Origin: a virus
Taxonomy: Duplodnaviria > Caudoviricetes
Direction: 5' to 3' (one strand)
Virus record (IMG/VR): IMGVR_UViG_3300027714_000014
Location: 1,460 to 65,459 of that record
Length of the DNA stretch: 64,000 nucleotides
Part shown: piece by piece, positions 14,354 to 16,149 of the stretch
How the letters are laid out: each line of letters opens with the position of its first letter
Position numbering within the stretch: the first letter of the stretch is position 1
Notes under the pieces: generated by a model
What the model was told of the DNA's origin: nothing
Seen by the model: only the letters and a program-made list of their open reading frames with translations
Databases searched by the model: none
Program-made: the position numbers and the translations under genes

Positions 14354-15025
14354 TTACTCAACACGGAGAGTTCCACCCATTGGTATAATATTTCTAGGTT
14401 TCTTAGAAAAGTTTTTATGAATGTAGCAAGAAGTGGTTTCAGTATCTACATGTATTGGCTTGAAGCCATGAAAGTGAATTGGCAGTAAATCTGATTTATC
14501 CAAGAGCTCTTTTGCCCGTGGATTGTTATCACAATTATCTAGTATAATCATGCCGCCATCTGCAAGACTTTTTAAAGAGGGTAATACGCACTTGGTACGG
14601 AAATGACCATCAATAATAATCACATCAAAATTCATTTTGTACTTATAGATAGATTTTGTGTACAAGCTCTGATCTTCCTCAACACAAATTTTGTGTTTAT
14701 TGTCAGGATTTACTTTGTCTGCCCACTCTTTATTCTTTTCAACACCATACATATTACACTTCATGTTATCCCACCAAACGGTGCTATAGCCACAACCAAA
14801 CTCAAAAACATTAGAATTTTCCCAGTTCATACTGCGAAGATATTCATAGCATGGATATGTATACAGTGGCATAATTTCTTGATAACCACTTACGGGAACA
14901 TTGTTTCTTGAGGATTCTAAAAATCCATAATCATTTCTAAGCTTATGCATCAAATATGTTAAATGTAATTCTTCTATTGGCAGTTCAACATCTGCGATAA
15001 TAACTTGTCTCTCGTACATAACCAA
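14354..15025 (-). CDS. class I SAM-dependent methyltransferase-like protein
   Basis: VFEFGCGYST motif I; FDVIIIDG; GGMIILDN. Confidence 0.75.
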   Translation of the reverse strand: MVMYERQVIIADVELPIEELHLTYLMHKLRNDYGFLESSRNNVPVSGYQEIMPLYTYPCYEYLRSMNWENSNVFEFGCGYSTVWWDNMKCNMYGVEKNKEWADKVNPDNKHKICVEEDQSLYTKSIYKYKMNFDVIIIDGHFRTKCVLPSLKSLADGGMIILDNCDNNPRAKELLDKSDLLPIHFHGFKPIHVDTETTSCYIHKNFSKKPRNIIPMGGTLRVE

Positions 15026-15039
15026 TCCTCATTATAATA

Positions 15040-15433
15040 AAGTGGTGGGTATTCTGTTGCAAGGAACCCACCGAACCCCGAAAGATTACGCAGCTAGTGC
15101 GTAATCCCCATATGCAATATTATCGTTTGCATTTACTAATTTGACCAATAACGCAGTCATCCGACAATTCTCCACTCATCCGTCCCTGCCTGTCGATCCT
15201 GTTTCGCCCCCATCAAAAAAAGACTAGGTATATTAAACCCGCTAGTAGGGTAATGTCAGCACATATACTCCAAACGATATATGCTTTAAACATCCACTTA
15301 CTAACCTCTCGTACTAAGGGGGTCTTCATCAGAATCCCCTATCATTACTTTTGGCATACTAGTCTCCTTTTGGTGGAGGCGTTGGGTACTGCCCCCAAGT
15401 CCAGTTCAGTTCTCAATTCGTATCATCAAATTG
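15040..15433 (-). ncRNA. ssrA: two-piece (circularly permuted) tmRNA, alphaproteobacterial type
   Basis: Piece ending GGCAGTACCCAACGCCTCCACCA (CCA at 15371-15373) lies upstream of the piece starting GGGGGCGAAACAGGATCGAC (15211); G3-U70; tag ANDNIAYGDYALAA* at 15086-15130; outer ends approximate. Confidence 0.93.
15213..15329 (-). CDS. 38-aa membrane peptide inside the tmRNA intervening segment
   Basis: MKTPLVREVSKWMFKAYIVWSICADITLLAGLIYLVFF*; GGGGA SD; stop 1 nt before tmRNA G1. Confidence 0.55.
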   Translation of the reverse strand: MKTPLVREVSKWMFKAYIVWSICADITLLAGLIYLVFF

Positions 15434-15438
15434 TACTC

Positions 15439-15469
15439 TATTTATACCATGTGAGGAATCATTTGTCAA
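15439..15469 (-). promoter_or_regulatory. composite sigma70 + T4 late promoter for tmRNA
   Basis: TTGACA-N17-TATAAATA. Confidence 0.75.
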
Positions 15470-16149
15470 GACCCAAATGGAATAAAACTTTGAATAGAAT
15501 ATCTATATCTTTCATCAAATTCAGCATATGTTCCATGAAAATTTTTTCCCTCATAAATTATCAAGGTGTTAAATGTGCTTGGTGCAATATGATATAATTC
15601 CCAATCTTCATCTCCCTCAAAATTTTGCCAAGGAACAATAATACTTTTTTTAAGCTTGCTCATAACTATTCCACCAACTTTACTTTTTGGTAAGATTAAA
15701 TTATCATTATTATAATGCCCTTTGTATCTGTAAAATGCTGTGCCTCCAACATAGTCACACAGCCATATATTACAAACTATTTTAAGATTGTCAACATGGG
15801 GCATCCATGAATTTTTCCAGACTTGCATATTCTTTGATAATATCAAAGAAGTGCTTAATGATTTAGTCACATCAACGTTTACTCCTAATTGAGGAAAAAG
15901 GGATTGATATTTTTTTAATATAGGAACTAAATCCATAGGAGTAAAATTCTGTCGTGCGCCAGGAGTATATACATGACCATCCAATGCTGGCCATTCTCTT
16001 AAAATTGATATTGTGTCTAAGGGATTTTTCAGAAAATCATCAATAGAATAATACTTTAAGTCACCAATTTCATTTTTTGTAATTTTTAAATTATCATTTG
16101 GCTCTAAAGTTTTGTATAGTTTATCACGATTTATAAAATTAAAATTCAA
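15466..16149 (-). CDS. 2OG-Fe(II) oxygenase-like protein (DUF6445-like)
   Basis: IDDFLKNP, PHVD, GGTAFYR, FNTLIIYEG..FH. Confidence 0.7.
   Translation of the reverse strand: MNFNFINRDKLYKTLEPNDNLKITKNEIGDLKYYSIDDFLKNPLDTISILREWPALDGHVYTPGARQNFTPMDLVPILKKYQSLFPQLGVNVDVTKSLSTSLILSKNMQVWKNSWMPHVDNLKIVCNIWLCDYVGGTAFYRYKGHYNNDNLILPKSKVGGIVMSKLKKSIIVPWQNFEGDEDWELYHIAPSTFNTLIIYEGKNFHGTYAEFDERYRYSIQSFIPFGS

What the first reader, a model, noticed from the sequence alone, without database searches (positions are those of the whole stretch)
15212..15370. tmRNA intervening segment is a stem-closed cassette encoding small proteins
Seen: the 159-nt spacer is bounded by inverted repeats (AAAGGAGACTAG...CTAGTCTTTTTT). 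It holds a 38-aa ORF with a TM-like C-terminus (15213-15329) whose stop lies 1 nt before the tmRNA 5' G. It also holds an overlapping 18-aa ORF, MPKVMIGDSDEDPLSTRG (15301-15357), behind a strong AAGGAG that is paired in the closing stem. Known: this segment is normally a non-coding, excised spacer. Inference: cargo mRNA released by or coupled to tmRNA maturation, possibly a small toxin-like or superinfection-exclusion peptide.
Basis: partly seen in the sequence, partly recalled or inferred. Interest (0 to 1): 0.75.

Follow-up and report, generated by a model that had tools for sequence, protein, structure and literature searches.

The report
Small protein gene inside phage tmRNA
The spacer normally cut out of a marine phage's two-piece tmRNA gene carries a conserved gene for a 38-residue membrane protein and a short leader reading frame, so an RNA-gene "waste" segment doubles as a tiny messenger.

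Summary
The window (a 65-kb IMG/VR phage record) holds a permuted tmRNA gene on the minus strand. Its 159-nt intervening segment (15212-15370) is closed by a 12-bp stem and holds the two ORFs described.

Comparative data show that the 38-aa ORF is a real gene. It is intact in 44 of 44 distinct homologous spacers. pN/pS is 0.15 in its frame, against 1.25 and 2.83 in the other sense frames. Relatives form 71 clusters of small "hypothetical" proteins in metagenomes. Some relatives are free-standing genes with the same leader-ORF layout.

The 18-aa ORF behaves as a translated leader. Its start codon and open frame are kept in 36 of 36 spacers, but its peptide evolves neutrally (pN/pS 1.09).

Long, ORF-bearing spacers occur in viral genes (20 of 75) and not in cellular alphaproteobacterial tmRNA genes (0 of 96). 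Near-identical tmRNAs carry unrelated spacers, so the site behaves like a cassette slot. At least three unrelated spacer ORF families also show coding signatures.

Release by RNase P and 3' trimming, the timing of translation and the protein's function (toxin or exclusion) remain inferred. No paper found in four searches reports this. Interest 0.72; a new variant of a known kind.

The parts
15441..15469 (-). Sigma-70-type promoter of the tmRNA precursor: TTGACA (15469-15464), 17-nt spacer, TGgTATAAA (15449-15441)
   Evidence: Read directly from the sequence. The same layout lies upstream of relatives' tmRNA genes (L419; Melnitz). The scan tool did not list it because it requires T at position 6 of the -10 hexamer.
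15371..15434 (-). tmRNA acceptor piece (T-arm and 3' acceptor strand), ending in CCA at 15373-15371
   Evidence: Rfam RF04321 and RF01849 alignments; ARAGORN
15212..15370 (-). Intervening segment (IVS), 159 nt
   Evidence: Homologous IVS found in 119 viral loci, 45 distinct sequences.
15359..15370 (-). 5' arm of the closing stem, AAAGGAGACUAG. It contains the Shine-Dalgarno AAGGAG of the leader ORF (15369-15364).
   Evidence: All 12 pairs are kept in 16-19 of 19 sequences.
15216..15227 (-). 3' arm of the closing stem, CUAGUCUUUUUU. It doubles as the last four codons (L-V-F-F) of the 38-aa ORF.
15301..15357 (-). Leader ORF (18 aa, MPKVMIGDSDEDPLSTRG). It overlaps the Shine-Dalgarno and the start of the 38-aa ORF in another frame.
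   Evidence: A start codon (ATG 10, GTG 25, TTG 1) is present in 36 of 36 distinct 159-nt IVS. There are 0 of 36 stops in its 9 free codons, against 36 of 36 and 21 of 36 in the other frames. pN/pS is 1.09.
15315..15341 (-). Hairpin UAGGGG / loop with AUG / CCCCUUA. It sequesters the GGGG Shine-Dalgarno (15339-15336) of the 38-aa ORF.
   Evidence: RNAalifold pairs 31-36/52-57 of alignment A1, with G-U to G-C changes only. The same hairpin appears in free-standing homologues.
15213..15329 (-). 38-aa ORF MKTPLVREVSKWMFKAYIVWSICADITLLAGLIYLVFF: a basic N-terminal part, then a 23-residue hydrophobic helix with an invariant Asp25
   Evidence: Intact in 44 of 44 distinct copies with pN/pS 0.15. The profile finds 71 clusters. 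AlphaFold2 gives a single helix over residues 4-37, pLDDT 89.6. Mean hydropathy is 2.01 for residues 16-38.
15212..15215 (-). UGAU just before the mature 5' G. It nearly complements the ACCA end (one C x A mismatch), and its UGA is the stop codon of the 38-aa ORF.
   Evidence: Pair table of the precursor fold. TGAT is kept in most IVS families, short hairpin ones included.
15041..15211 (-). tmRNA coding piece: 5' acceptor strand GGGGGCG, then the tag reading frame at 15130-15086 (ANDNIAYGDYALAA, stop)

Best explanation
The intervening segment of this phage's permuted tmRNA gene is a miniature two-cistron message lodged inside an RNA gene.

How it most likely works:
1. One early-type promoter transcribes the acceptor piece, the 159-nt segment and the coding piece as a single precursor.
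2. The segment carries a strong Shine-Dalgarno and a short leader ORF whose peptide does not matter. It also carries a 38-residue single-helix membrane protein of a widespread, uncharacterised phage family.
3. Two helices restrain translation. The 12-bp closing stem pairs the leader's AAGGAG with the Phe-Phe codons at the end of the protein gene. An internal hairpin hides the protein gene's own GGGG ribosome-binding site.
4. Ribosomes most likely load on the nascent RNA before the 3' arm is made. Translating the leader then opens the internal hairpin.
5. Once the whole segment is transcribed, the closing stem extends the tmRNA acceptor stem into one long helix. The host's RNase P and 3'-end trimming then free the two tmRNA pieces and a stem-closed 159-nt RNA.

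Shown here: the anatomy, purifying selection on the 38-aa ORF, selection for an open leader frame, homologues outside tmRNA genes, restriction to viral genes, and spacer swapping.

Inferred: co-transcription, the processing sites, when translation occurs, membrane insertion, and the protein's role.
For: - tmRNA gene and boundaries.
- Stem and hairpins.
- ORF2 intact in 125 of 125 loci that carry the 38-aa form (44 of 44 distinct sequences).
- ORF2 pN/pS is 0.15, against 1.25 and 2.83 in the other sense frames. It is 0.17 in codons 26-38, which no search pattern touched.
- The set found through the tmRNA alone (7 distinct spacers) also has ORF2 intact in 7 of 7.
- The antisense shadow frame carries stops in 25 of 44 sequences.
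- The ORF2 profile finds 71 protein clusters at E<=1e-3 and 11 at E<=1e-10 among 1.84 billion representatives.
- Free-standing homologues with the same AAGGAG, leader ORF, GGGG and ATG layout lie just upstream of a tmRNA promoter (L002, L007) or among protein genes (L352, L356). They fold with the same SD-to-3'-end stem.
- Leader ORF: start codon in 36 of 36, 0 of 36 stops, pN/pS 1.09.
- Cellular control: 0 of 96 distinct alphaproteobacterial spacers hold an SD-preceded ORF of 20 or more codons, and 91 of 96 are under 60 nt. The viral figures are 20 of 75 with such an ORF and 39 of 75 at 100 nt or more.
- tmRNA flanks 94-95% (acceptor piece) and 75-83% (coding piece) identical to the window's carry unrelated 32- or 74-nt spacers.
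- Other spacer ORF families have pN/pS of 0.20, 0.20 and 0.34.
- Processing of permuted tmRNA precursors by tRNA-processing enzymes: PMC11915505, passage seen.
Against: - There is no direct evidence of translation or of a stable excised RNA.
- The metatranscriptome data are Logan contigs of relatives, 85-95% alike and at low depth. They cannot separate RNA from carried-over DNA.
- In the folded state both ribosome-binding sites are paired, so the released RNA may be translationally silent.
- Sequences in the pN/pS counts are related, and all pairs were pooled without a tree.
- Two of the three searches that gathered the sequences used patterns inside ORF2.
- Some spacer variants lack the leader (L408 type) or replace it with another ORF (L132, L208). 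The leader is therefore not obligatory.
- Covariation support for the helices is weak: 1 of 38 pairs shows a double change.
- No named phage genome holds ORF2 (tblastn, no match). No cultured system exists for this particular gene.
Confidence: 0.8

Rival explanations
1. The segment is an ordinary non-coding spacer. Its conservation reflects RNA structure needed for tmRNA folding and processing, and the ORFs are accidents.
For: The closing stem and internal hairpins are conserved. In the single sequence a 38-codon ORF arises in 2% of shuffles. Cellular spacers are plain hairpins.
Against: Variation is frame-specific: pN/pS is 0.15 against more than 1 in the other frames. 25 of 38 third positions vary, against 8 of 38 second positions. 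Homologous proteins are encoded outside any tmRNA gene. The profile finds 71 protein clusters.
Confidence: 0.03
2. ORF2 is a type I toxin-like (hok/mok-style) killer or abortive peptide. Its mRNA is kept inert by 5'-3' pairing and activated by processing, with an antisense RNA as antidote.
For: It is a small hydrophobic single-helix protein. An overlapping leader ORF resembles mok. A long-range SD-to-3'-end stem is present even in free-standing copies.
Against: No convincing antisense promoter was found: the only plus-strand match is 9 of 12 at 15141-15168, and the number of sites was no more than in shuffles. 3' trimming would remove the stop codon and the last codons rather than activate the message. 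The highly conserved motif with an invariant Asp in the helix suggests a specific partner rather than generic membrane damage. No toxin family matched.
Confidence: 0.12
3. The protein is functionally tied to trans-translation, for example by modulating a membrane protease or the fate of tagged proteins. The RNase P cut leaves its stop codon 1 nt from the 3' end, which would make the released message a near-nonstop substrate of the phage's own tmRNA.
For: 66 (68 if two loci not read directly are counted) of 79 distinct family members sit inside a tmRNA gene, and two more sit directly upstream of one. The UGA lies at -4..-2 of the cleavage site. In at least seven other spacer ORFs, including cultured phage Melnitz, the frame reads 23-64 nt across the cleavage site.
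Against: The linkage could simply reflect a convenient, strongly transcribed, swap-prone site. The UGAU is explained by pairing with ACCA. Free-standing copies far from any tmRNA exist (L351, L352, L356, L365). Nothing here bears on tagging.
Confidence: 0.12
4. ORF2 is a generic phage early membrane protein (superinfection exclusion, lysis timing or similar). It was merely parked in the spacer, with no functional relation to tmRNA maturation.
For: It lies behind an early-type promoter (the Melnitz paper places ssrA behind an early promoter). The family also occurs as ordinary genes. The spacer slot accepts unrelated ORFs.
Against: The protein ends inside its hydrophobic helix (…LVFF), without the charged C-terminal tail I recall as typical of holins. 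No lysis genes lie beside it. Function was not tested. This rival differs from the best explanation only in the protein's role, so the two can both hold.
Confidence: 0.3

Closest known systems
Intervening sequence of permuted (two-piece) tmRNA genes of Alphaproteobacteria, some Betaproteobacteria and Cyanobacteria (Rfam RF01849, RF04321)
   Same: It has the same gene order (acceptor piece, spacer, coding piece), the same stem that extends the acceptor helix, and the same expected excision by tRNA-processing enzymes (PMC11915505 passage).
   Different: Cellular spacers sampled here are 95 nt or less (91 of 96 under 60 nt) and hold no SD-preceded ORF of 20 or more codons (0 of 96). This one is 159 nt and protein-coding.
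ssrA of Methylophilales phage Melnitz (MZ577095; Buchholz et al. 2022, PMC9004378)
   Same: It is the closest named tmRNA (77% identity over 50% of the query). Both are marine T4-like phage two-piece tmRNAs behind a TTGACA/TATAAA promoter. Its spacer also starts with GGAG and an ATG ORF.
   Different: Melnitz's spacer ORF is unrelated to ORF2 and reads into the coding piece. The paper (abstract, passages and section 8 read) discusses a glutamine riboswitch 3' of ssrA and does not mention spacer ORFs. Its supplements could not be seen.
hok/mok-type type I toxin mRNAs
   Same: Both have a small hydrophobic protein, an overlapping leader ORF with the strong ribosome-binding site, and an end-to-end pairing that hides it. 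The features of hok/mok are recalled, not looked up.
   Different: No antisense RNA was found. Activation by 3' trimming would destroy the ORF. No sequence similarity was found. The gene sits inside a tmRNA gene.
Group I introns with homing-endonuclease genes in tmRNA genes; a tRNA-Ala gene or a repeat element inside a permuted tmRNA spacer (PMC11915505)
   Same: These are other genes nested in a removed part of a tmRNA gene (passages seen).
   Different: Those are selfish or RNA genes. This segment is not an intron (no intron model matched), and a 38-aa helix cannot be an endonuclease.
mRNAs punctuated or released by tRNA processing (mitochondrial tRNA punctuation; bacterial tRNA-mRNA co-transcripts) - recalled, not looked up
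   Same: A message would be delimited by RNase P and 3'-end processing of flanking tRNA-like structures.
   Different: Here both flanks belong to one split RNA molecule, and the message's own ends form the helix that helps that RNA fold.

Membership tests
Permuted (two-piece) tmRNA gene | Covariance-model score above the curated threshold | tested here: met
   RF01849 scores 125.7 bits (cut-off 50) and RF04321 scores 111 bits (cut-off 47).
Permuted (two-piece) tmRNA gene | Acceptor piece ending in CCA lies upstream of a coding piece that starts with the complementary G-rich strand | tested here: met
   CGCCUCC-ACCA at 15381-15371 pairs with GGGGGCG at 15211-15205.
Permuted (two-piece) tmRNA gene | Tag reading frame ending in a hydrophobic ...LAA and a stop | tested here: met
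   ANDNIAYGDYALAA* at 15130-15086.
Uncharacterised small-protein family ([KR]W[ML]F[KR]AYIxWS[IV]CAD...G..YLIFF) defined here | Significant profile match and the conserved Y17/W20/D25 core | tested here: met
   71 clusters at E<=1e-3. D25 is invariant and Y17, S21 and G31 are kept in at least 90% of 35 diverse members. All named members are 'hypothetical protein'.
Type I toxin-antitoxin (hok/mok-like) | Small hydrophobic membrane peptide | tested here: met
   38 aa, single helix over residues 4-37; hydropathy 2.01 over residues 16-38.
Type I toxin-antitoxin (hok/mok-like) | Cis-encoded antisense RNA antitoxin | tested here: inconclusive
   Only a 9-of-12 plus-strand promoter-like match at 15141-15168, with no more sites than in shuffles. 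No strand-specific RNA data.
Type I toxin-antitoxin (hok/mok-like) | Toxicity on expression | not testable with these tools
   Needs an expression assay.
Homing endonuclease in a tmRNA group I intron | Self-splicing intron in the T-loop and an endonuclease domain | tested here: not met
   No intron family matched at gathering thresholds. The segment lies at the permutation junction. ORF2 is 38 aa with no domain hit.
Pfam DUF2542 | Score at or above the gathering threshold (25 bits) | tested here: not met
   15.3 bits, E 0.029 for the window protein. 11 of 35 relatives give sub-threshold hits, best E 0.0045.
Phage holin | Hydrophilic charged C-terminal tail after the last membrane helix, and a lysis-gene neighbourhood (features recalled) | tested here: not met
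   The protein ends ...IYLVFF inside the helix. Its neighbours are a methyltransferase-like ORF and a DUF6445/phrog_1644 ORF.

The most novel reading that the evidence does not exclude
Marine phages use the excised spacer of their own tmRNA gene as a slot for messages that RNase P turns into nonstop or near-nonstop mRNAs. In this window the stop codon ends 1 nt from the cut. In several other spacer families, cultured phage Melnitz included, the frame runs across the cut. The products would then be made normally only from the uncleaved precursor and would be tagged by the phage's own tmRNA once the precursor is processed. That would be a self-contained circuit linking tmRNA maturation and activity to the level of a small membrane protein.
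Probability: 0.12. Interest if true: 0.9.

Novelty: new variant of a known kind. Interest (0 to 1): 0.72.

Why it matters
The spacer of permuted tmRNA genes has been treated as disposable. The papers read here note only a tRNA or a repeat inside it.

This work shows that in uncultured marine phages the spacer repeatedly holds conserved small protein genes: at least four unrelated families, and sometimes two genes at once. That adds a hidden class of genes that gene callers and tmRNA annotators both skip. It also gives a compact natural example of one sequence serving several roles at once: ribosome-binding site, codons, and a helix that folds another RNA. The question of how translation and RNA processing compete on one transcript becomes directly testable.

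The cultured pair Melnitz and its OM43 host, whose tmRNA spacer also holds an ORF, offers an experimental entry point.

Tried and rejected
- Expression data. The run search found only small shares (0.05-0.07 of words) in marine RNA libraries. Laying four runs from four studies gave Logan contigs 85-95% alike, so they come from relatives. Two low-depth contigs bridge the spacer/coding-piece junction (X5 15152-15302; X9 15112-15275), and a few lie inside the spacer. Many 'joints' are relatives with other spacers. Contigs give no depth profile, ends or strand, so this neither supports nor refutes translation or excision.
- Word-index protein search. The exhaustive profile search was used instead.
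An alignment headed by a 42-aa member was sent instead.
- Family libraries. PHROGs gave no hit for ORF2. Pfam gave only a sub-threshold DUF2542 hit. NCBIfam gave nothing meaningful. The ESM Atlas returned only unnamed clusters, best score 0.91.
- tblastn of ORF2 against 50,697 named phage records gave no match.
- The plus-strand 114-aa ORF at 15253-15597 was rejected as a shadow frame. It shares wobble positions with ORF2, covers the tmRNA acceptor piece and promoter, and its frame has stops in 25 of 44 relatives.
- The idea that homologues in L353, L355, L378 and L420 sit between tRNA genes was not upheld. Neither ARAGORN nor Rfam calls a tRNA there. Only L357 has a tRNA-Cys, 12 nt after the stop.
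- Literature. Four full-text searches found no report of protein-coding tmRNA spacers. Supplements were closed.

Full report
**What is there**

The window is bases 1460-65459 of a 65,459-base IMG/VR virus record, estimated 40% complete. It encodes a family-B DNA polymerase, a ribonucleotide reductase and a tail protein, plus tRNA-Thr and tRNA-Arg.

On the minus strand ARAGORN calls a permuted tmRNA (14995-15463, tag ANDNIAYGDYALAA). Rfam scores it well above threshold: RF01849 at 15041-15473 with 125.7 bits against a cut-off of 50, and RF04321 at 15086-15434 with 111 bits against 47.

- The acceptor piece ends with CCA at 15373-15371.
- The coding piece starts at G15211.
- The intervening segment (IVS) is 15370..15212, 159 nt.
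- A TTGACA / 17 nt / TGgTATAAA promoter lies at 15469-15441. I read it by eye. The scan tool omits it because its -10 ends in A.

IVS nt 1-12 (AAAGGAGACUAG) pair with nt 144-155 (CUAGUCUUUUUU). In the fold of the whole precursor this stem continues the acceptor stem through ACCA/UGAU, with one C x A mismatch, into a helix of about 26 bp.

- The IVS folds at -44.4 kcal/mol, z -3.15, with 0 of 200 shuffles as stable.
- A 12-bp terminal stem arose in 2 of 20000 shuffles.
- The 38-aa ORF (15329-15213) stops at a UGA one nt before the mature 5' G.
- The 18-aa ORF (15357-15301) starts 6 nt after GGAG.
- On its own the 38-codon ORF is weak evidence: 402 of 20000 shuffles reach that length.

**Relatives**

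In 112 of them an acceptor end could be located, giving 75 distinct IVS of 14-264 nt. Thirteen loci (7 distinct sequences) carry the homologous IVS, and all 7 keep both ORFs.

Two further scans widened the set: a DNA pattern inside ORF2 (45 stretches) and back-translated protein motifs (233 relatives, best 80 kept). In all, 129 loci carried the motif.

- 125 loci have the 38-aa form intact.
- 3 loci hold a longer 44-aa free-standing form.
- 1 locus is cut by a contig end.
- 119 loci lie demonstrably inside a tmRNA IVS.
- These give 45 distinct IVS and 44 distinct ORF2 sequences of the 38-aa form.

**ORF2 is a gene**

| Measure | ORF2 frame | Other sense frames |
|---|---|---|
| Pooled Nei-Gojobori pN/pS, 44 sequences | 0.15 | 1.25 and 2.83 |
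| pN/pS, codons 26-38 (untouched by any search pattern) | 0.17 | 1.53 and 5.84 |

- In the first 21 sequences, 25 of 38 third positions vary, against 8 of 38 second positions.
- The antisense frame that shares wobble positions scores 0.34 but carries stops in 25 of 44 sequences. This disposes of the plus-strand 114-aa ORF listed.
- A profile of ORF2 finds 71 clusters (E<=1e-3; 11 at E<=1e-10) among 1.84 billion representative proteins. They are small proteins sharing [KR]W[ML]F[KR]AYIxWS[IV]CAD...G..YLIFF. All are unnamed or 'hypothetical'.
- Asp25 in the middle of the hydrophobic helix is invariant in 35 diverse members.
- AlphaFold2 gives one helix over residues 4-37, with pLDDT 89.6.
- Pfam, PHROGs, NCBIfam and the ESM Atlas give no family.

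**The leader ORF**

In 36 of 36 distinct 159-nt IVS a start codon (GTG 25, ATG 10, TTG 1) sits at the same place. The nine codons before ORF2's ATG contain no stop. The other two frames have stops in 36 of 36 and 21 of 36 sequences, and shuffles leave the frame open 45% of the time.

pN/pS for these codons is 1.09, the same as in the other frames. The act of translation therefore seems to be selected, not the peptide.

The leader runs across the hairpin (15341-15336 / 15320-15315) that pairs ORF2's GGGG ribosome-binding site and holds its AUG in the loop. Leader translation would open that hairpin.

The leader is present in 43 of 45 distinct IVS. The two exceptions carry a different, conserved 34-35-aa Cys-rich ORF in its place. 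A diverged IVS type (L408) puts ORF2 directly behind AAGGAG.

**The module exists outside tmRNA genes**

- In L002 and L007 the same AAGGAG, leader, GGGG and ATG unit, with a 44-aa ORF2, lies immediately upstream of the tmRNA promoter. L030 is cut at its 5' end.
- In L352 and L356 it stands among protein genes.
- L351 and L364/L365 have ORF2 homologues without a leader.
- L357 has one 12 nt upstream of a tRNA-Cys.

A script regex placed 61 of the 79 distinct family regions in an IVS, leaving out nine loci at contig ends. I read six of the remaining 18 by eye, and five of those were in an IVS, giving 66. Two more (L409, L418) encode the L408 protein and are presumed to be in an IVS too, which would make 68.

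The free-standing messages also fold with the ribosome-binding site paired to the last codons, and with the same GGGG hairpin (4 of 4 tested). The 3' boundary I chose for those folds favours that pairing. Still, the closed architecture looks like a property of the gene, and it would suit insertion into an IVS that needs a closing stem.

**A viral cassette slot**

| Set | Distinct IVS | Lengths | SD-preceded ORF of 20 or more codons |
|---|---|---|---|
| Cellular alphaproteobacterial tmRNA genes with the same 20-mer (97 of 120 loci usable) | 96 | 91 under 60 nt, longest 95 nt | 0 of 96 |
| Viral | 75 | 39 at 100 nt or more | 20 of 75 |

- tmRNA genes whose acceptor and coding pieces are 94-95% and 75-83% identical to the window's carry unrelated 32- or 74-nt IVS. 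Some genes with the homologous IVS are less similar, for example 81%/86%.
- Other IVS families hold their own conserved ORFs. pN/pS in frame is 0.20 for the 145-nt family, 0.20 for the 115-nt family and 0.34 for the 152-nt family. The 109-nt family gives 0.59 on an ungapped comparison. The 127-nt pair shows no frame-specific signal: 0.80 in frame against 0.69 and 0.68 in the other frames.
- Expanded IVS of 256-380 nt hold two genes.

**Closest named relative and literature**

The nearest named tmRNA is that of Methylophilales phage Melnitz (77% identity over half the query). Its IVS also starts with GGAG and an ATG ORF, which reads into the coding piece.

The Melnitz paper (PMC9004378) describes the two-piece ssrA, an early promoter and a glutamine riboswitch 3' of it. 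I read the abstract, passages and section 8; it does not mention IVS ORFs. The tmRNA database paper (PMC11915505; passages) mentions a tRNA-Ala and a repeat element inside IVS, and introns that bear homing-endonuclease genes, but no IVS protein genes. Four full-text searches found nothing closer. Supplements were closed.

**How it most likely works**

Shown: the anatomy, the coding constraint, the open leader frame, the conserved helices, the contexts and the swapping.

Inferred from established knowledge of permuted tmRNA maturation: the precursor is cut by RNase P at 15212/15211 and trimmed to CCA at 15371, which frees a 159-nt stem-closed RNA.

Both ribosome-binding sites are paired in the folded RNA, and the 3' arm is transcribed about 140 nt after the 5' arm. 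I therefore favour loading of ribosomes on the nascent transcript, leader-assisted opening of the ORF2 site, and silencing once the stem forms and processing occurs. A ribosome on the last ORF2 codons would cover the 5' acceptor strand, so translation and tmRNA folding should exclude each other on one molecule.

The protein's role is unknown. The invariant intramembrane Asp and the tight motif suggest a specific membrane partner.

**What remains open**

- There is no direct expression evidence. The RNA-library contigs come from relatives and cannot show ends, strand or level.
- It is open whether the released RNA is translated, inert or tagged. The stop lies 1 nt from the predicted 3' end. In several other IVS ORFs the frame crosses the cut by 23-64 nt.

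**Verdict**

The leader is probably regulatory. The toxin and exclusion readings are unsupported. This is a new variant of known kinds of nested genes and of messages delimited by tRNA-like processing.

Noticed in passing
L012, L085, L108, L023, L100, L038 (109/108-nt IVS); L060, L063, L035 (115 nt); L074, L032, L049 (145 nt); L003, L011 (152 nt); L037 (205 nt); L102 (244 nt); L081 (264 nt): Unrelated IVS families in viral permuted tmRNA genes each hold their own SD-preceded ORF of 29-77 aa. Several have a hydrophobic helix. In-frame pN/pS is 0.20 (145 nt), 0.20 (115 nt), 0.34 (152 nt) and 0.59 (109 nt, ungapped).
   Followed up: partly
L012, L023, L038, L003, L072, L097, L115; L150 2580-2790 (Melnitz): In these IVS the ORF has no in-frame stop before the tmRNA 5' G. 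It reads 23-64 nt into the coding piece, so RNase P cleavage would leave a nonstop message. Cultured phage Melnitz shows the same (MFKWLSKTRLVVITRDYF...).
   Followed up: partly
L132/L159 (260-nt IVS), L208 (256 nt), L144/L149/L211/L212 (380 nt): Expanded versions of the same IVS carry an extra gene upstream of ORF2. One is a conserved Cys-rich 34-35-aa ORF (..NCF.ANYRRKCNA.Y.DLCM). The 380-nt form carries a 72-aa ORF followed by a second AAGGAG and leader.
   Followed up: partly
L147/L184 (236-nt IVS): The IVS contains an embedded copy of a different, 62-nt hairpin-type IVS (like that of L069), followed by ...CUGAU GGAG. It looks like a recombination scar between two tmRNA genes.
   Followed up: no
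L007 5478-5577; L002 1133-1235: Between the tmRNA promoter and the acceptor piece lies a conserved ~32-aa ORF (MDFLYEGPFKDPKIREEYERYLDRV...). In these phages the 5' leader of the tmRNA precursor also seems to carry a small gene.
   Followed up: no
L150 2902-2950 (Melnitz): A glutamine riboswitch (RF01739, 52.8 bits) lies directly after the tmRNA and before a short ATG ORF. It may control that downstream ORF rather than the tmRNA, as the paper's wording suggests.
   Followed up: no
L353, L355, L378, L420, about 130-190 nt upstream of the ORF2 homologue: A T-arm-like sequence (GGTTCGAGTCCCCTCTCTTCC...) precedes the gene. Neither ARAGORN nor Rfam calls a tRNA or tmRNA there.
   Followed up: partly
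P0015 (686 aa): A long protein matches the 38-position ORF2 profile in 10 separate stretches. It could be a repeat protein or a mis-called frame; I did not look at it.
   Followed up: no
window 15466-16149 (-) and 14354-15025 (-): The flanking genes are a DUF6445/phrog_1644 ('minor coat protein', E 3.8e-22) protein and a weakly methyltransferase-like protein (Methyltransf_24, E 0.01, below cut-off).
   Followed up: partly
IVS ends in most viral loci: The four bases before the mature 5' G are nearly always UGAU. They pair with the ACCA end except for one C x A mismatch. This may be a conserved feature of how these precursors present the RNase P site.
   Followed up: partly
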